DNA of 64,000 nt from Candidatus Krumholzibacteriia bacterium (GCA_963836185.1 CAWIIQ010000001.1:1440001-1504000), one strand, 5' to 3'. Positions 54,340-59,132 are shown, numbered from the stretch's first letter. Translations and numbers: made by a program. Notes: a model not told the origin generated them from the sequence alone.

Positions 54340-54392
54340 GATTTCGCCGCCGCTGTACGAGCGGCGGCTATACATTTCAGACTGCCATTTAT

Positions 54393-54466
54393 GGGCCGCT
54401 AGCTCATCCGGTTAGAGCACCTGCCTTTTAAGCAGGGGGTGCCAGGTTCAAGTCCTGGGCGGCTCA
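54393..54466 (+). tRNA. tRNA-Lys(TTT), CCA not encoded
   Basis: GGGCCGC/GCGGCTC acceptor, CCTGC-CTTTTAA-GCAGG anticodon arm, CCAGG-TTCAAGT-CCTGG T-arm. Confidence 0.95.
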
Positions 54467-54521
54467 TTTTTTCATGTATTCACTGTTAAAAGCTAGTCAG
54501 TGTTGATAATCACGTAAGTGA

Positions 54522-56450
54522 TTACTCCATGATTTCTATATTCAGCGGTGTTTTGATAGAAGAGGTGTCGAAGCCGTTCTCTTCGAGATGATCGATTATC
54601 ATCTGTCCTATTTTCTGGGGATCGGGAAGATCATCCTCTCTGCACGGCGCGGTATGGCCTTCCATATCGGAGATGGTCAGTATGCTTTCCCTGAGAAGCA
54701 ATTTGTAATATTTCTGATGATAGAATATGCCAACCGATCCAATCGAGTAGAACGGTGGTGAGATTTTGCGGATGTCCAGCTGCTTTCCATACTTCTTTTG
54801 TGTGACAAGACCGCGTTCACGGGTGGCAGTGAAAATAAAGCGTCGGGAATCGACATCGGATGACAGAAGGGACATTCCTCCCATCCACTCGGGCTGCGCG
54901 ATATCCATATAGTCCAGGATCGTTGGAGCGATGTCGAGATTCTGAACATTAGCTTTTATTCGTCTCTTGTGCTTTCCGTCGGGAAAAATAAACATCAAAG
55001 GTACTCGAACATCAACTGTCCATCGAGGACCATGATCGGTACAGATGACCACTATGGTGTTATGCGAGACATTGCTCTCCTTGAGTTTCTGCATAAGCTC
55101 CTCGATAAAACCATCAAAACCCAATATGGAATCATCATAGAAATCGGTCATCCATGGGTCTGTCTCTTTCTTATTTGCTGAAAAGACTCGATTGCTGAGA
55201 CGGAACAAGGGACCGTGAGTTCCGAGCAGATGTACATGTACAAAGAATGGGGAATGAGAACTATCAATAATCGTAAACAGGTCCTTGATTCTCTCTTTGT
55301 CCCAGTTGTATCTTCTCCCGGTTGTGCCCAGTTCAGCCATCGGATCTCTCATGTGCTGCATATTGAATACATGCAGGAAACGAATCGTTATCCTTTCTCG
55401 CATCGCGTTGATAAAATAAACAGATTTGTCACCCAGCAACGCCTGGGATAAGACTTCCAGATTATCCCGCTCAATTTCTCTACGATTGGCCCAATGGAAC
55501 GAGTTAAGCATATTCATGTCTATCGGGTCGGCATGATGGCGAGTGCTGATATCAGAGTTTCGAAAACCGTATTTTCTCAGTTCGCCGGGTAGATGTTGAT
55601 AGGCATCATCACCTTCCAGTATCTGAGGAGGGAACATCAGCCTTGTTCTGGTAGGGAGCTTCCCTGTAAACATCGAGGCAATTGAAGCGCTGGAAGCATC
55701 GGCGTTGGTGAAACAGTTTTCACATAGAAGGAGATCTTGGGAAATCTTATCGAGGTATGGAGTCGTTTTCCGTTCATATCCGTAAACGGACATATGTCGT
55801 GCGTCAAGACCGTCGCTGGACAGAATAATGATATTCGGTGGATTTTCAAGCGAGAGGGACCTTTCGTTCCACTTGAGATTCTCAAGTTGGGACTTATCAA
55901 CGCTTGTGGCGATGAACACGATAGAGACGAGTATCAGTCCCAAAACCAATGTGACTACAGCGCGGAATGAATACTTGCCTGAAAACATTTTCTTGAGATT
56001 AGGAAGTTCCACATAGAAGATGAACGCAAGAATAAGCATCAGTAACCAATAGGCCGCCAGACCTACACCACTTACGTTTCTTACACCGAAGTGCAGAACT
56101 GTATATGTGAAATTGTCTACGAGAAGGAGGGATATCGCGACAAGTACCAAGGTCGTAATTATAGAGGCTGTCGTCGAGCATATACGCAGGACGAACGCAT
56201 TTTTCGTAATGATGAACGGGAGGAAGCAAAGGAACATGGCGAGTGTTCCGATAATAACCGGTGGTATTGGCGAAACGAGCAGAATCTGGATCTTCTCCAA
56301 AAGGCCCATCTTGTCCATGAATGACGGCTTTGTTATATAAAAAAGCCATTCCAGCAGAACGTGAAGATATACCAGGAGTACGATCAGAGTGATCTGAACC
56401 TTCCAGCCGCTTTTTCTCCCGGCCTGATCGTCGGACATCGCGCTAATCAT
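54522..56450 (-). CDS. Membrane-anchored alkaline-phosphatase-superfamily (LtaS/sulfatase-like) hydrolase/transferase
   Basis: About 5 N-terminal TMs; NIIILSSDG, YGY...TTP, SIASMFTG, HLLGTHGP, TDHG, NLDIAPT. Confidence 0.8.
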   Translation of the reverse strand: MISAMSDDQAGRKSGWKVQITLIVLLVYLHVLLEWLFYITKPSFMDKMGLLEKIQILLVSPIPPVIIGTLAMFLCFLPFIITKNAFVLRICSTTASIITTLVLVAISLLLVDNFTYTVLHFGVRNVSGVGLAAYWLLMLILAFIFYVELPNLKKMFSGKYSFRAVVTLVLGLILVSIVFIATSVDKSQLENLKWNERSLSLENPPNIIILSSDGLDARHMSVYGYERKTTPYLDKISQDLLLCENCFTNADASSASIASMFTGKLPTRTRLMFPPQILEGDDAYQHLPGELRKYGFRNSDISTRHHADPIDMNMLNSFHWANRREIERDNLEVLSQALLGDKSVYFINAMRERITIRFLHVFNMQHMRDPMAELGTTGRRYNWDKERIKDLFTIIDSSHSPFFVHVHLLGTHGPLFRLSNRVFSANKKETDPWMTDFYDDSILGFDGFIEELMQKLKESNVSHNTIVVICTDHGPRWTVDVRVPLMFIFPDGKHKRRIKANVQNLDIAPTILDYMDIAQPEWMGGMSLLSSDVDSRRFIFTATRERGLVTQKKYGKQLDIRKISPPFYSIGSVGIFYHQKYYKLLLRESILTISDMEGHTAPCREDDLPDPQKIGQMIIDHLEENGFDTSSIKTPLNIEIME

Positions 56451-57822
56451 CTTTCCTCATCATGTAGAGGGTTCTCAGGGAATCGACGACCTTTTCGGCG
56501 CGCTCGATCCTGAAATACCGCGAGAAGGCTTCTTCGAAATTCTCCTTCGTGTAATCATCGAAGACATCCTCACGGCACACGAGGAGGCGACGGACCTGCG
56601 AATCTTCCTTGGGAACGAATTCTACGATCAAGACGTCGCATACCCTGCTGAGGAACTCCGCTATCCTGTCCAGGGGAAGGTTGTTTGATATCGCCAGATG
56701 ATGGATCAGTGCTAGAGCCAGAGCCACATCGGCGGGTCCACGCTCGATCAGAGACATCCGTTCGCGGCCGCTCCAGCCCATGCCGGATGTCGGATTAGTC
56801 AAATCGAGAACGAGAGGAAGAATGTTCTTTTTTGCCTTCTGGACGCACTCGAGATAATTCCTCTCGACTGCCGCGGGATCGACATCGAACGAAAGGACAT
56901 ATCCGCCCCCGGAGGCGGCAATCGCGCTGTACCGACCCGTATTCGCGCCGAGGTCCCACACGACACGGGTCCGGACGGCATCCAGGAACTCGCCGATGAG
57001 TCTGTCTTTGTATACGAGACCTTCTGCGGTGTAGTTAGTATCCTCGTAATATTCTGCCCACTCAGTGCCGCGCGGCGCCCATTTAAGTCGCTTGATCGCT
57101 GAATCCAGACTGTCGATGATTCCGAGCAAGGCAGTGCGGCTCACCTTTCCGCGTTTAACGGGCTTCTTTGTCTCATCCGCATATTTAGCCTGGTAACGGG
57201 AATGGAGATGAATATGTGTTATTAGAGGAAACGAGAGGTAAGAGCGAAAAGGCAGAAGGGCGCTTGCGAGATCGAGCGGTATGCCGTCTATATATATCTG
57301 GAAGAGCTGGCTGAGGCGCACATCCTTGTAGCTCATGAGGGCTAGCGGCGCGAGAAAGTGCTGGCAGAACTGGCGGTAGGCGACCCAGGGCTGGCCTTCC
57401 CGGTACCGCTCGAATGAGAGCGTGTCGATGAAGACCGCTCTTCCCCCTTCGAACTGCACGTTGAACGCGCTGCAATCCTTCAGCGACATATCGTGCTCGA
57501 GCGCTTTCTTCTGTACCGCGAGTGTCAGGAGGGCGGCATCTTTCAACTGACTGAAACACCACTCGTGGGGATACGAGATAAAAGGGATGATCCGGGGGTG
57601 CAGTATCTTATACGCGTCGTCTGAGACGGTGAGGGAGAGGTCTGCCTCTTCGTGCTCTACGATCAATCGATCAGAAACGAGCTGTTCGTAGAGTCCGGAC
57701 TGGATAAAATGCTCGTATTCTTGCTGGTAGCGTTTATTGATCTGCCGGTACAGCTGTCCTTCTCTGAAAAACATGAATCCGTTTGGATCGCGGAAGGAAC
57801 CGCCGTGCGTCTCTTTATCCAT
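56443..57822 (-). CDS. NoeA-like protein: N-terminal kinase-like domain plus class I SAM methyltransferase
   Basis: SFRDPNG, ISYPHEW, LKDCSAFNVQF, FIDTLSF; VWDLGANTG, ALALIHHL, EFVPKED. Confidence 0.8.
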   Translation of the reverse strand: MDKETHGGSFRDPNGFMFFREGQLYRQINKRYQQEYEHFIQSGLYEQLVSDRLIVEHEEADLSLTVSDDAYKILHPRIIPFISYPHEWCFSQLKDAALLTLAVQKKALEHDMSLKDCSAFNVQFEGGRAVFIDTLSFERYREGQPWVAYRQFCQHFLAPLALMSYKDVRLSQLFQIYIDGIPLDLASALLPFRSYLSFPLITHIHLHSRYQAKYADETKKPVKRGKVSRTALLGIIDSLDSAIKRLKWAPRGTEWAEYYEDTNYTAEGLVYKDRLIGEFLDAVRTRVVWDLGANTGRYSAIAASGGGYVLSFDVDPAAVERNYLECVQKAKKNILPLVLDLTNPTSGMGWSGRERMSLIERGPADVALALALIHHLAISNNLPLDRIAEFLSRVCDVLIVEFVPKEDSQVRRLLVCREDVFDDYTKENFEEAFSRYFRIERAEKVVDSLRTLYMMRKDD

Positions 57823-58066
57823 CTTTACCTGGAGGATCGTCTTTTCGCTGATCGTTTTTTCTGAGGATGTTGTTGCTTACGAAGAACTGGATCCTTTTCC
57901 AAAAAAGTTTGAGCATGAAGGCGGTGCCGACAAGGCCGGCCAGGACGATCTGCAGGATGTAACTTCCCGTCCCCGGGTCTACATACGCATGGGCGCTGCC
58001 GCAGAGAAGCATGACTGCGCAGGTTGACAATACGACCGTGCTTAACAGAAATCGTATATGCCGCAT
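57815..58066 (-). CDS. Small membrane protein with AYVDPGTGS motif
   Basis: Signal peptide ending AHA, YVDPGTGS, one TM helix, basic tail; overlaps the next gene. Confidence 0.8.
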   Translation of the reverse strand: MRHIRFLLSTVVLSTCAVMLLCGSAHAYVDPGTGSYILQIVLAGLVGTAFMLKLFWKRIQFFVSNNILRKNDQRKDDPPGKDG

Positions 58067-58208
58067 ATAATTGTTCTCCCTGCTGGAAACGATATCTCGA
58101 GGATGTATCGACTCAGTTTCCTGAGGCCGTTAGTATCAAGAAATACAGGACTTATCGGAATTTTAACAGAATCAGGCCGGCATTGCCAGCAGAATGTCTT
58201 TTATCCCG

Positions 58209-58814
58209 TTACAGTATCTGCCCCTCGTCCTTCTCCCGGAGAAATACCATCGCGGCCGTGACGCACCAGACTGGCATCAATACGAGGGCGAGCGGAGAGA
58301 GCACGACAGTCAGTTCCAGGACTCCCATGACGAGGGTCACGTATGCGAAGACTTTCATCAGCTCGTTCTTCCTCTCTTTCATCTGCAGGAGCCGCAGGCC
58401 GATGAAGATCTCGATGATGCCGGCGGAGGTCATGGAGACGACCCAGAATATGATCAGTGCGATCAGTGACGTCATGTCCGGAGCGGGCCATGTCGTATCG
58501 GCGAATAAGATCATGCCGAAAGAAGCGATAGTGAATACTATGTACCAGATTATGGAGGCATTGATCGGCCCGTCAGCTTTCGAATAGCCGTATCGATCCC
58601 TGAGGAGCTTTCGAAGCATAAGAAGCACAAAGATCATGACAGCAGCGATGACAACAGTGGAAAGGTCCTCGATACTGAGGCCTGGATCATCCATTCCCAT
58701 CATGTGTTTGCCGACGAACGTCTCGGCGAGACCGAAGGCGAACATAAGGGGGAGGAAGACCGCCAGGGCGATCGAAAGCCAGCCCGCAACTGTATAGCTC
58801 TTATCCGTCATCAT
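58209..58814 (-). CDS. Hypothetical polytopic membrane protein
   Basis: About 6 hydrophobic helices; GGAGG RBS. Confidence 0.7.
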   Translation of the reverse strand: MMTDKSYTVAGWLSIALAVFLPLMFAFGLAETFVGKHMMGMDDPGLSIEDLSTVVIAAVMIFVLLMLRKLLRDRYGYSKADGPINASIIWYIVFTIASFGMILFADTTWPAPDMTSLIALIIFWVVSMTSAGIIEIFIGLRLLQMKERKNELMKVFAYVTLVMGVLELTVVLSPLALVLMPVWCVTAAMVFLREKDEGQIL

Positions 58815-58866
58815 CGGACCTCCAGGAATGGATTCTCATTTCGACGCGGGGCAGGAGAGTGCCGGA

Positions 58867-59073
58867 TCAATCCGGAATATACTCGAGGATATCACCGGGC
58901 TGACAATCAAGCTCCCGGCATATCGAACTGAGAGAACCGAACCTGAGGCCCTTCATCTTACCCGTCTTGAAGAGGGAAAGAGCGGTAAGGGACAGTCCGA
59001 CCCTGTTCGACAGCTCGGTCAGCGACATCTTTCTCCTGGCCAGCATCACATCCAGATTTATTTGAATAGCCAT
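58867..59073 (-). CDS. XRE/Cro-C1 (YozG-like) HTH regulator
   Basis: 'MAIQINLDVMLARRKMSLTELS...LDCQPGDILEY'. Confidence 0.9.
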   Translation of the reverse strand: MAIQINLDVMLARRKMSLTELSNRVGLSLTALSLFKTGKMKGLRFGSLSSICRELDCQPGDILEYIPD

Positions 59074-59079
59074 GACTGA

Positions 59080-59132
59080 ATTATATTCCAGAAATTTAAG
59101 TTGTCAAGCTAATAATTTAAGCAAAACTTAAA
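59080..59132 (-). promoter_or_regulatory. Leaderless-type promoter and candidate operator of the XRE gene
   Basis: TTGACA-N16-TATAAT ending 6 nt before the ATG; TTTAAG-N5-CTTAAA palindrome at 59116..59132. Confidence 0.55.

What the first reader, a model, noticed from the sequence alone, without database searches (positions are those of the whole stretch)
54522..58066. Coupled three-gene cassette: AYVDPGTGS microprotein + kinase/methyltransferase + LtaS-like transferase
Seen: three genes overlapping by 8 nt each (57815/57822 and 56443/56450), implying translational coupling. Gene 1 is a signal peptide, YVDPGTGS, one TM and a basic tail. Gene 2 fuses a kinase-like half (KDCSAFN resembling the D-x4-N catalytic loop, FID resembling DFG) to a class I SAM methyltransferase (DLGANTG). 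Gene 3 has about 5 TMs and an AP-superfamily domain whose nucleophile region 'ASSASIAS' lacks the CxPxR formylglycine motif. Known: WbdD uses kinase and methyltransferase domains to cap O9a O-antigen with methyl-phosphate, and LtaS/EptA enzymes transfer phospho-headgroups via a hydroxyl nucleophile. Inference: an uncharacterised envelope-modification pathway making a methyl-phospho donor and transferring it outside the membrane, with the microprotein as acceptor, carrier or accessory subunit.
Basis: partly seen in the sequence, partly recalled or inferred. Interest (0 to 1): 0.75.

Follow-up and report, generated by a model that had tools for sequence, protein, structure and literature searches.

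The report
NoeA/NoeB-type envelope phospho-decoration cassette
The three overlapping genes are real and belong to a widespread, biochemically unstudied gene set, first seen as noeA/noeB in the alfalfa symbiont, that pairs a tiny membrane protein with a kinase-like/methyltransferase enzyme and a membrane phosphotransferase-like enzyme, and that likely adds a phosphate-based decoration to a cell-surface sugar polymer.

Summary
Three minus-strand ORFs of 83, 459 and 642 aa overlap by 8 nt each.

Gene 2 is a full-length homologue of Sinorhizobium NoeA (36% identity, E 1e-70). It belongs to the Lani_1194 kinase-methyltransferase family described by bioinformatics in 2022 (PMC9758233). Its N-terminal half folds like a protein kinase, with invariant D116, N121 and D133, and Arg26 where kinases have the lysine.

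Gene 1 sits upstream of gene 2 in 76 of 80 loci from many phyla; the other four are cut by contig ends. It also lies, unnamed, between nodL and noeA on pSymA. Its invariant Y-x-D-P-G-T/S-G-S begins the predicted mature protein, which would be N-out and C-in. The same module is fused to TagF-like glycerophosphotransferases.

Gene 3 has 5 TM segments and an alkaline-phosphatase-superfamily domain, with Ser/Thr at the nucleophile position and no formylglycine motif. It is one variant of a changeable third slot, most often filled by a NoeB-type gene: 45 of 75 loci have such a gene directly downstream.

The chemistry is untested; WbdD-like methyl-phosphate addition is the best guess. An earlier report of this scan (e1-1394469) described the same module on other DNA. 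This is a new member of a known, uncharacterised kind.

The parts
57815..58066 (-). Gene 1: an 83-aa microprotein, homologous to the unnamed ORF upstream of noeA.
   Evidence: ORF. 26 relatives were found, with invariant A27, Y28, D30-S35, Q39 and W56. It lies upstream of gene 2 in 76 of 80 loci. A 71-aa homologue sits on pSymA between nodL and noeA.
57986..58066 (-). Gene 1 residues 1-27: a predicted cleavable signal peptide (basic N-terminus, hydrophobic 4-22, A-H-A).
   Evidence: Hydropathy. The -3/-1 residues before Tyr are A-x-A in 20 of 58 homologues that have a long N-terminus, and small residues in most others. Six homologues, all Chloroflexota, have 12 or fewer residues before Tyr. 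Cleavage is inferred, not shown.
57962..57985 (-). The invariant motif Y-V-D-P-G-T-G-S (residues 28-35), predicted to sit outside the cytoplasm at the mature N-terminus.
   Evidence: 64 of 65 aligned homologues match the motif. A motif-first scan found the same word followed by a hydrophobic stretch in 77 of 80 metagenome loci.
57899..57961 (-). The single membrane span of gene 1 (residues 36-56, with conserved Q39 and W56), followed by a basic juxtamembrane tail.
   Evidence: The juxtamembrane net charge averages +3.8 in 64 homologues, which predicts the C-terminus is inside.
56443..57822 (-). Gene 2: a NoeA / Lani_1194-family bifunctional enzyme, with no TM segment.
   Evidence: tblastn gives 36% identity, 99% cover and E 1e-70 to genes annotated 'nodulation protein NoeA'. 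The AF2 model has pLDDT 95.7. There are 1984 50%-identity clusters at E<=1e-30.
57073..57822 (-). Gene 2 residues 1-250: an atypical protein-kinase-like domain (R26, D116, N121, D133).
   Evidence: Folded alone, pLDDT 89.2. The Foldseek top 50 are all kinase folds, E about 1e-4. The VIA-align top 50 are all protein kinases, Z 8.5-10.1. There is no sequence-level hit in Pfam or PDB.
56446..57072 (-). Gene 2 residues 251-459: a class I SAM-dependent methyltransferase domain (D290-x-G-x-N-x-G).
   Evidence: VIA-align gives Z 16-18.4; MePCE is top at 18.4 and WbdD scores 16.9. Foldseek ranks 1, 2, 4 and 9 are WbdD. In the profile search, WbdD scores E 0.002-0.003 over 123 residues. Pfam gives only a weak Methyltransf_12 match at 0.012.
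54522..56450 (-). Gene 3: a membrane alkaline-phosphatase-superfamily enzyme with a 5-TM N-terminus and an outward-facing catalytic domain.
   Evidence: Pfam Sulfatase 8.9e-35 at residues 205-517. TM segments. Orthologues occur in 10 of 120 other genomes of the phylum, and all 10 also carry gene 2.
55692..55694 (-). The codon of Ser253, at the position that aligns with the sulfatase formylglycine residue; it is the predicted hydroxyl nucleophile.
   Evidence: Alignment to solved sulfatases. The position is Ser in 8 and Thr in 3 of the 11 true gene 3-family sequences aligned (the twelfth row, L079, was a wrongly picked different gene). Pro and Arg of C/S-x-P-x-R are absent. D213, S256, H407, H412, D472 and H473 are invariant.
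54392..54467 (+). tRNA-Lys (UUU), flanking the 3' end of the cassette.
   Evidence: GC drops to 45% across gene 3, against 55% in gene 2.
58160..58189 (-). A weak sigma-70-like promoter match upstream of gene 1.
   Evidence: 9 of 12 positions. This is a consensus match only; the number found in the region is no higher than in shuffles.

Best explanation
This is a NoeA/NoeB-type cassette. Gene 2 is a NoeA-family enzyme with a protein-kinase-like N-terminal half and a SAM-methyltransferase C-terminal half. It likely phosphorylates and then methylates a membrane-linked glycan or lipid on the cytoplasmic face, as WbdD does.

Gene 1 is a single-pass microprotein predicted to lie N-out and C-in, with Y-x-D-P-G-T-G-S at its mature N-terminus. 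It would hold or couple gene 2 at the membrane.

Gene 3 is a 5-TM alkaline-phosphatase-superfamily enzyme with a Ser nucleophile. It would act on the same polymer outside the membrane as a phospho-group transferase or hydrolase.

Shown here: the homology to NoeA, the conserved pairing, the folds and the invariant residues. Inferred: kinase activity, methyl-phosphate chemistry, the substrate, the topology, and any contact between the three proteins.
For: Family:
- Gene 2 matches pSymA noeA over 99% of its length at E 1e-70.
- pSymA carries the same order: a 71-aa ORF with A-H-A then Y-L-D-P-G-T-G-S overlapping noeA by 23 nt, then noeB.
- NoeB matches the profile of the commonest third-slot family at 98.3% probability, E 2e-14, over 284 columns.
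- PMC9758233 (section 8 read; supplements searched) describes the same traits for Lani_1194: Arg in place of the Lys, no ion-pair Glu, D/N/D kept, a C-terminal methyltransferase, and a short hypothetical plus an ALP-like/EptA-like neighbour.

Kinase-like domain:
- Searches give the fold.
- D116, N121, D133 and R26 are invariant in 63 and in 41 sequences. The spacing is 5 and 12 residues; that this matches the usual protein-kinase spacing is recalled, not from a call.

Methyltransferase domain:
- WbdD is Foldseek rank 1 (E 9.8e-8).
- WbdD gives the longest profile match in the PDB (E 0.002).
- The phosphate methyltransferase MePCE tops VIA-align at Z 18.4.

Pairing:
- A gene 1-like ORF lies upstream in 76 of 80 loci; the 4 misses are cut at a contig end.
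- The junction overlaps in 60 of 74 loci.
- Motif-first sampling: of 67 loci with at least 500 nt downstream, 44 have gene 2 directly downstream and 6 have a TagF-like enzyme fused or adjacent. Pfam confirms PF04464 in 3 of 3 tested.

Third slot:
- An AP-superfamily membrane gene lies directly downstream in 45 of 75 loci.
- All 10 phylum genomes with a gene 3 orthologue also have gene 2, against 38 of 120 overall.

Context elsewhere:
- GT2 genes occur in 16 of 80 loci, a Wzt-type ABC ATPase in 5, and a cytidylyltransferase in 5.
Against: - No activity has been measured for any member of the family.
- The kinase-like domain is seen only by predicted fold. TM is about 0.4, rmsd 4-5 Å and Z about 10. 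Pfam gives 0 of 41 significant hits and the PDB profile search gives none.
- The domain lacks the Lys-Glu pair. Kinase folds can also carry out AMPylation or glutamylation (abstract of PMC10870513, seen in the listing).
- The methyltransferase matches to WbdD and MePCE are tied within about 2 Z units with many generic methyltransferases. A conserved N-P-x-P segment at residues 343-346 would fit N-methylation instead (that motif link is recalled, not tested).
- The exoplasmic motif of gene 1 stays conserved even when the module is fused to an enzyme, so plain anchoring does not explain it.
- Gene 3 differs in GC from genes 1 and 2 (45% against 51-55%).
- 7 of the 12 gene 3 orthologue sites in the phylum have no gene 2 within 1.5 kb.
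- 24 of 80 loci have no AP-type gene within about 6 kb.
- In this window no glycosyltransferase or transporter genes flank the cassette.
Confidence: 0.4

Rival explanations
1. The microprotein is the substrate. The outward-facing AP-superfamily enzyme transfers a phospho-group onto Thr33 or Ser35 of the exposed N-terminal motif, in the way EptC and PptA modify periplasmic proteins. Gene 2 would act elsewhere or regulate the process.
For: T33/S35 and the whole motif are nearly invariant and predicted to face outside, next to the catalytic domain of gene 3. In one metagenome locus (L155) the microprotein is followed directly by a PF00884 gene with no gene 2 between them.
Against: The tightest partner is the cytoplasmic gene 2 (76 of 80), not the AP gene (45 of 75 directly downstream; none in 24 of 80 loci). 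The module is also fused to cytoplasmic TagF-like enzymes, which fits a structural module better than a consumable acceptor.
Confidence: 0.12
2. Gene 2 makes a soluble head-group. A small alcohol or amine is phosphorylated and then N- or O-methylated, for example in a phosphocholine-like route, and other enzymes later attach the product. No lipid-linked glycan would be its substrate.
For: Weak profile and fold matches to phosphoethanolamine N-methyltransferases (E 0.022-0.48; Z 16.1; E 0.33). Small-molecule kinases of the same fold appear among the Foldseek hits (AmiN). Cytidylyltransferase genes occur in 5 of 80 loci.
Against: A soluble pathway gives no reason for an obligate, translationally coupled membrane microprotein. 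The matches to those methyltransferases are no better than matches to generic ones.
Confidence: 0.15
3. Gene 3 is an unrelated passenger, acquired separately next to the tRNA gene. Its overlap with gene 2 would be incidental.
For: A sharp GC step falls at the gene 2 / gene 3 boundary (55% to 45%). tRNA-Lys is adjacent. 7 of the 12 gene 3 orthologue sites in the phylum lack gene 2 within 1.5 kb. The overlap disappears if Met5 is the true start.
Against: All 10 genomes with a gene 3 orthologue also carry gene 2, against 38 of 120 overall (relatives are not independent samples). In 4 sites gene 2 is directly upstream and in one the order is gene 3 - gene 1 - gene 2. The third slot is filled by the same superfamily in 45 of 75 loci across phyla.
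Confidence: 0.1
4. The kinase-like half is not a kinase. It could be a pseudokinase scaffold or an enzyme with other nucleotide chemistry such as AMPylation, and only the methyltransferase would modify the substrate.
For: Arg replaces the beta3 Lys and no ion-pair Glu is found (PMC9758233 section 8). Fold similarity is modest.
Against: The three residues that position Mg-ATP and the acceptor (D116, N121, D133) are invariant across phyla. That is unusual for a pseudokinase.
Confidence: 0.1
5. As proposed for NoeA/NoeB, the cassette decorates a secreted signal molecule of the Nod-factor type rather than an envelope polymer.
For: In S. meliloti the homologous genes sit in the flavonoid-inducible nodL-noeA-noeB host-range operon (passages of PMC9048898 and PMC4053727; Ardourel 1995 is cited there but was not read).
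Against: The family occurs in archaea, candidate-phyla bacteria, Chloroflexota and many non-symbionts. No nod genes lie nearby in the window.
Confidence: 0.06

Closest known systems
NoeA / NoeB of Sinorhizobium meliloti (nodL-noeA-noeB operon), equivalent to the Lani_1193-1194-1195 module of Legionella anisa (PMC9758233)
   Same: Gene 2 is 36% identical to NoeA over 99% of its length. The traits match: a kinase-like half with Arg in place of Lys and the D/N/D residues, plus a class I methyltransferase. A small membrane ORF with the same motif overlaps the start of noeA. A 5-TM alkaline-phosphatase-fold gene follows.
   Different: The third gene here is a PF00884 sulfatase-type protein. It matches the NoeB-type profile only over an 82-column core, and BLASTP against NoeB is not significant. 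There are no nod genes, and the host is a Krumholzibacteriota-like genome. The function of NoeA/NoeB is itself unknown.
WbdD of E. coli O9a (kinase-methyltransferase that caps the O antigen with methyl phosphate; PMC3482155)
   Same: A kinase fold and a class I methyltransferase sit in one polypeptide. WbdD is the best solved match for the methyltransferase half. Both act, or would act, at the cytoplasmic face of the membrane.
   Different: The domain order is reversed: WbdD runs methyltransferase, kinase, then a coiled coil at residues 460-708 (passages read). Gene 2 has no coiled coil and no membrane-binding tail. The kinase halves are not detectably similar in sequence. PMC9758233 treats such kinase-methyltransferase proteins as separate families: it calls WbdD and Lcin_0519 'clearly different, remotely related' and describes Lani_1194 as its own family.
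LtaS / EptA / OpgB-type membrane phosphotransferases
   Same: Five N-terminal TM segments precede an outward-facing alkaline-phosphatase-superfamily domain. The nucleophile position carries a hydroxyl residue, and the Asp/His metal ligands are conserved.
   Different: Scores to their curated models are far below cut-off: LtaS 27 bits against 970, CptA 29 against 404. By sequence the catalytic domain lies nearer to S1 sulfatases (E 2.6e-10).
TagF-like CDP-glycerol glycerophosphotransferases carrying the same N-terminal module
   Same: The N-terminal hydrophobic segment, A-Y-L-D-P-G-S-G-S and a TM segment are fused to PF04464. In two loci (L108, L146) a NoeB-type gene follows the fusion.
   Different: The cytoplasmic enzyme belongs to another family. 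The TM segment lacks the Q39 and W56 of gene 1.

Membership tests
NoeA / Lani_1194 kinase-methyltransferase family | Full-length similarity to NoeA | tested here: met
   tblastn against plasmids found 65 records, 57 of them Sinorhizobium. The match is 36% identical, covers 99% and scores E 1e-70; where annotation exists the gene is labelled 'nodulation protein NoeA'.
NoeA / Lani_1194 kinase-methyltransferase family | An N-terminal atypical kinase domain with Arg at the PKA K72 position, no ion-pair Glu, and the D166/N171/D184 equivalents kept (PMC9758233 section 8) | tested here: met
   R26, D116, N121 and D133 are invariant in A2 (63 sequences) and A3 (41 sequences). The kinase fold is supported. 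No conserved acidic residue lies in the helix after R26 (consensus).
NoeA / Lani_1194 kinase-methyltransferase family | A C-terminal class I SAM methyltransferase domain | tested here: met
   Z 16-18 to many class I methyltransferases over residues 250-459.
NoeA / Lani_1194 kinase-methyltransferase family | Conserved neighbours: a short hypothetical protein and an ALP-fold membrane protein | tested here: met
   Gene 1-like ORF in 76 of 80 loci. AP-type gene directly downstream in 45 of 75. The paper reports 65% and 38% of 816 neighbourhoods. Identity of gene 1 with Lani_1193 itself was not tested, because no sequence was at hand.
WbdD family | Domain order methyltransferase - kinase - C-terminal coiled coil (PMC3482155) | tested here: not met
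   Here the kinase-like half comes first and the methyltransferase second. The protein ends at residue 459 with no further domain.
WbdD family | Phosphorylation and then methylation of a glycan terminus | not testable with these tools
   The only evidence is fold and weak profile similarity of the methyltransferase half.
Type I (formylglycine) sulfatases | A C/S-x-P-x-R motif at the nucleophile | tested here: not met
   The aligned segment is S-S-A-S-I. Pro is replaced by Ala or Gly and Arg by Ile or Leu in the family, and the nucleophile position is Thr in 3 of the 11 true gene 3-family sequences aligned; a Thr cannot become formylglycine.
Type I (formylglycine) sulfatases | PF00884 catalytic fold with Asp/His metal ligands | tested here: met
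   PF00884 at 8.9e-35. D213, H407, H412, D472 and H473 are invariant.
LtaS / EptA-type membrane phosphotransferases | An N-terminal multi-TM domain followed by an extracytoplasmic AP-superfamily domain with a Ser/Thr nucleophile | tested here: met
   Five hydrophobic segments before residue 185. Ser or Thr at position 253. The topology itself is predicted, not measured.
LtaS / EptA-type membrane phosphotransferases | A score above the curated family cut-offs | tested here: not met
   NCBIfam scores: LtaS 27.4 bits (cut-off 970), CptA 29 (404), EptA 13.5 (561).
NoeB-type third-slot family (cluster c2) | A profile match over the catalytic domain | tested here: inconclusive
   hhalign of the c2 profile against gene 3 gives 96% probability but over only 82 columns. 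NoeB matches the same profile over 284 columns. The two families share the signature N-x3-[ST]-x2-S-[IL]-[AT]-S by eye.

The most novel reading that the evidence does not exclude
The Y-x-D-P-G-T/S-G-S microprotein is an unrecognised, very widespread transmembrane coupling module. Its eight-residue exoplasmic N-terminus docks the outward-facing alkaline-phosphatase-type enzyme, while its tail, or a direct fusion, holds a cytoplasmic phospho-group enzyme of the NoeA type or the TagF type. Inner-face and outer-face steps of glycopolymer phospho-decoration would then run as one machine. The same unnamed ORF would be a missing third player in the 30-year-old noeA/noeB host-range question.
Probability: 0.25. 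Interest if true: 0.7.

Novelty: new member of a known kind. Interest (0 to 1): 0.5.

Why it matters
The cassette family is very large. Gene 2 alone has 1984 50%-identity clusters at E<=1e-30 and occurs from archaea to candidate-phyla bacteria. It includes the rhizobial host-range genes noeA and noeB, whose biochemistry has never been worked out.

If gene 2 really makes a methyl-phosphate or related cap, that would be a second, far more common solution to a job so far known mainly from WbdD. The microprotein, mostly unannotated, carries a motif specific enough that 77 of 80 loci hit by its DNA pattern show it followed by a membrane span. It gives a simple marker for finding such phospho-decoration loci. 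It also gives a concrete third gene to delete in Sinorhizobium.

For this window in particular, the result is ordinary: it is one more member of the family, with a swapped third gene.

Tried and rejected
- **Complex prediction (gene 2 + gene 1):** the queue was full at every attempt and nothing was folded. There is therefore no computational test of binding.
- **Sequence-level search of the kinase-like half:** the PDB profile search gave only a chance hit at E 2. Pfam gave 0 of 41 significant hits; RIO1 at 0.072 appeared in 2.
- **ESM Atlas on residues 1-255:** the best score was 0.78, below the level the tool treats as usable.
- **Gene 1 in Pfam and NCBIfam:** only sub-threshold chance hits.
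- **Gene 1 fused to gene 2:** long N-terminal extensions of some gene 2 relatives (for example P0164) showed no microprotein sequence.
- **Motif elsewhere in the genome:** a search of the window's whole genome found only gene 1.
- **Literature on the motif:** searching for the motif strings returned 8 papers; the 4 listed are unrelated. A 2026 preprint on new kinase-like families does not mention methyltransferase, WbdD or sulfatase.
- **Ardourel 1995:** not held, so the primary noeA/noeB data were not seen.
- **Sequencing runs:** no RNA holder is listed, and the two DNA holders carry small shares (0.18 and 0.05).
- **Full Pfam annotation of 196 neighbour genes:** one call was over the size limit and I dropped the idea. 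Context counts rest on cluster representatives.
- **Rows dropped:** L040's 165-aa 'AP' hit is probably false, because Pfam calls it a phage-integrase fragment; the count of 45 of 75 may be 44. In one search the ORF picked for L079 was a different AP-family gene on the other strand, so only 11 of the 12 rows are true gene 3-family sequences.

Full report
**Observation.** The three minus-strand ORFs are present exactly as described: 57815-58066 (83 aa), 56443-57822 (459 aa) and 54522-56450 (642 aa). Each junction shares 8 nt between a start and a stop codon. Gene 3 has a second Met at codon 5, so its overlap depends on which start is used. The genome resembles Krumholzibacteriota, judging by the source names given to the closest gene 2 relatives.

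**Gene 2.**
- Pfam sees only a weak methyltransferase signal (Methyltransf_12, E 0.012) and nothing in the N-terminal half.
- The family is very large. The word-indexed search hit its ceiling of 8000 proteins, and the top 120 are all at least 58% identical. The exhaustive search found 6374 50%-identity clusters at E<=1e-3 and 1984 at E<=1e-30, nearly all full-length.
- An AlphaFold model built from 63 diverse sequences is confident (pLDDT 95.7).
- Residues 250-459 are a class I methyltransferase. VIA-align gives Z 16-18.4, with the phosphate methyltransferase MePCE on top and WbdD at 16.9, but these are tied with many generic enzymes. WbdD takes Foldseek ranks 1, 2, 4 and 9. WbdD is also the longest profile match among solved structures (E 0.002-0.003 over 123 residues).
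- Residues 1-255, folded alone (pLDDT 89.2), returned only kinase folds in the top 50 of Foldseek (E about 1e-4, TM about 0.4). The top 50 of the Foldseek-independent VIA-align search were also all kinases (Z 8.5-10.1, about 190-200 residues aligned, rmsd 4-5 Å).
R26 in the second N-lobe strand is also invariant.
- There is no sequence-level link to kinases.

**Literature.** These traits match a family already described by bioinformatics. PMC9758233 (section 8 read in full; supplements searched) reports the following for Lani_1194 of Legionella anisa:
- a kinase domain with Arg in place of the PKA Lys72, no ion-pair Glu, and the D166/N171/D184 equivalents conserved;
- a C-terminal SAM methyltransferase, present in 94% of about 2000 homologues;
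- two conserved neighbours: Lani_1193, a short hypothetical protein, in 65% of 816 neighbourhoods, and Lani_1195, ALP-like with HHpred to EptA at 3.2e-27, in 38%;
- rhizobial homologues NoeA and NoeB.

I tested the link directly.
- tblastn of gene 2 against plasmids hit 65 records, 57 of them Sinorhizobium. The matches are 36% identical, cover 99% and score E 1e-70. Where annotation exists, the gene is labelled 'nodulation protein NoeA'.
- On pSymA the order is nodL, an unnamed 71-aa ORF overlapping noeA by 23 nt, noeA, then noeB.
- The unnamed ORF has A-H-A followed by Y-L-D-P-G-T-G-S, a membrane span and a basic tail. It is a gene 1 homologue.
- noeA and noeB are host-range nodulation genes of unknown biochemistry (passages in PMC9048898, PMC4053727 and PMC10945364). 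The primary paper, Ardourel 1995, was not available.

**Gene 1.**
- Twenty-six close relatives share invariant A27, Y28, D30-S35, Q39 and W56.
- I examined 80 genome loci found with the gene 2 profile. They come from Clostridia, Planctomycetota, Chloroflexota, Desulfobacterota, Acidobacteriota, Chlamydiota, a Woesebacteria genome and a methanogen-lineage archaeon. A gene 1-like ORF lies upstream on the same strand in 76 of them.
- In the four exceptions, gene 2 lies at the very start of the contig. In two loci an AP-type gene sits between gene 1 and gene 2.
- The junction overlaps in 60 of 74 evaluable loci, and the gap is 0-30 nt in 7 more.
- Most homologues have a signal-peptide-like N-terminus with small residues at -3/-1 (A-x-A in 20 of 58). 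Six, all from Chloroflexota, start at or within 12 residues of the Tyr.
- The stretch after the membrane span is basic, with a mean net charge of +3.8.
- From this I infer a mature protein that begins at the motif, with the N-terminus outside and the C-terminus inside.

**The microprotein module in other settings.**
- A 'longer proteins' search with the gene 1 profile found five proteins in which the same module (hydrophobic segment, A-Y-L-D-P-G-S-G-S, membrane span) is fused to the N-terminus of a TagF-like CDP-glycerol glycerophosphotransferase. Four carry a precomputed PF04464 hit; the fifth (P0300) is a truncated form read by eye. A sixth hit (P0297, 232 aa) is gene 1 with an unrelated extension.
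- That TagF enzymes work on the cytoplasmic face is established knowledge, not something tested here.
Of the 80 loci fetched, 77 show the motif followed by a hydrophobic 19-mer.
- 67 of those loci have at least 500 nt downstream. In 44 of them gene 2 is directly downstream. In 6 a TagF-like enzyme is fused or adjacent. The remaining 17 differ: 4 have gene 2 elsewhere in the locus, 3 have a TagF-like gene elsewhere, one is fused to a NoeB-type remnant, one is followed directly by a PF00884 gene, and 8 have nothing identified.
- In L108 and L146 a NoeB-type gene follows the TagF fusion.
- The module therefore accompanies more than one kind of cytoplasmic phospho-group enzyme. Its outside-facing motif stays conserved even when it is fused, so it is probably more than an anchor.

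**Gene 3 and the third slot.**
- Gene 3 has five hydrophobic segments before residue 185 and a PF00884 domain (E 8.9e-35).
- Its closest solved relatives by sequence are true sulfatases (E 2.6e-10). However, the sulfatase S-x-P-S-R aligns to S-S-A-S-I.
- In the 11 true family members aligned, the nucleophile position is Ser (8) or Thr (3), and the Pro and Arg are absent. D213, S256, S259, T262, G263, H407, H412, D472 and H473 are invariant.
- Gene 3 scores far below the curated cut-offs for LtaS, CptA and EptA. It works like that group by architecture but is not a member of their families.
- Across the 80 loci the commonest downstream gene is a different family, cluster c2 (about 520 aa, 5 TM segments). 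Pfam barely sees it (Sulfatase 4.7e-5). Its profile hits solved sulfatases (1.1e-8), gene 3's catalytic core (96% probability over 82 columns) and NoeB (98.3%, E 2e-14, 284 columns).
- Counting both families with HMMs, an AP-type gene lies directly downstream on the same strand in 45 of 75 loci, is adjacent in 50 of 80, and lies anywhere in the locus in 56 of 80, often as 2-3 tandem copies. One of the 45 is probably false.
- Other fillers include a 330-aa two-TM protein of unknown family, a Capsule_synth protein, PMT_2 and Wzy_C proteins.
- Wider context, from cluster representatives: GT2 in 16 of 80 loci, NAD-epimerase in 7, a Wzt-type ABC ATPase in 5, a cytidylyltransferase in 5.

**Distribution in the phylum.**
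- Gene 2 was found in 38 of 120 other genomes and in none of 4 genomes of the same genus (93-99% complete).
- Gene 3 orthologues were found in 10 of 120, and all 10 also carry gene 2.
- Of the 12 gene 3 orthologue sites, 4 have gene 2 directly upstream, one has the order gene 3 - gene 1 - gene 2, and 7 have no gene 2 within 1.5 kb.
- Some gene 2 proteins from other phyla (59-62% identical) are closer to the window's copy than many from its own class (50-57%).
- In the window, gene 3 is 45% GC against 55% for gene 2 and about 56% for the surrounding region. The step falls at the gene boundary, and tRNA-Lys is adjacent.
- Together this points to a mobile accessory cassette with an exchangeable third gene.

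**Mechanism.**
- Shown: homology to NoeA, the conserved and tightly packed gene 1 - gene 2 pair, a kinase-like fold with an intact D/N/D set, a methyltransferase fold nearest to WbdD, and an AP-superfamily third gene with a hydroxyl nucleophile and no formylglycine motif.
- Inferred: gene 2 is an active kinase. It methylates the phosphate it installs, as WbdD does (passages of PMC3482155). Its substrate is membrane-bound. Gene 1 tethers or couples it. Gene 3 acts on the same polymer outside.
- I put this mechanism at about 0.4.
- The main rivals are that the microprotein is the acceptor, that gene 2 makes a soluble head-group, that gene 3 is a passenger, that the kinase-like half is not a kinase, and that the target is a secreted signal.

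**Standing.** But the module is already in print as a bioinformatic observation, and an earlier report of this scan (e1-1394469) described the same module on Acidobacteria DNA.
- the invariant N-terminal motif of the microprotein and its predicted topology;
- its presence as an unnamed ORF in the classic nod operon;
- its fusion to, and pairing with, TagF-like enzymes;
- the Ser/Thr nucleophile evidence for gene 3;
- the genome-level co-occurrence of gene 3 orthologues with gene 2.

Noticed in passing
window 58209-59107 (minus strand): An HTH_26 (Cro/C1-type) regulator of 68 aa (58867-59073; Pfam 1.8e-21) is followed by a 201-aa multi-TM protein with no family (58209-58814). A perfect sigma-70 consensus, TTGACA-16-TATAAT, lies at 59080-59107. 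The pair sits just upstream of the cassette on the same strand, so read-through into gene 1 is possible.
   Followed up: partly
window 54400-56400 against 56400-57600: GC steps from about 45% in gene 3 to about 55% in gene 2, exactly at the gene boundary. tRNA-Lys(UUU) lies at 54392-54467, next to the end of gene 3.
   Followed up: partly
L096:3751-3966 (S. meliloti pSymA, CP140958.1): An annotated but unnamed 71-aa 'hypothetical protein' lies between nodL and noeA and overlaps noeA by 23 nt. It carries the same A-H-A / Y-L-D-P-G-T-G-S motif and membrane span as gene 1.
   Followed up: yes
L134 and L143 (metagenome loci): A microprotein with the motif lies between a TagF-like gene and a YidC-like 60KD_IMP gene (Pfam about 1e-24). 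A nucleotidyltransferase-aminotransferase fusion follows. An insertase next to a small N-out protein is suggestive.
   Followed up: partly
L139:2369-3154: The motif is joined in frame to the C-terminal part of a NoeB-type protein (the segment with the conserved His-x4-His-Pro-Pro), with no membrane span after the motif. It looks like a deletion remnant or an assembly artefact.
   Followed up: no
L155:387-2636: A microprotein with the motif is followed directly by a 750-aa PF00884 protein, with no gene 2 between them.
   Followed up: partly
L040:1361-1858 and L044:5989-8226: In L040 a phage-integrase-like fragment lies directly after gene 2. In L044 the gene 2 homologue sits in a 745-aa ORF with a long C-terminal extension.
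   Followed up: no
L021, L029, L053, L054, L081, L018: In these Chloroflexota loci the third slot holds a conserved protein of about 330 aa with two TM segments and no Pfam family (cluster c5). In several of them the surrounding genes are conserved too: topoisomerase I upstream and GreA downstream.
   Followed up: no
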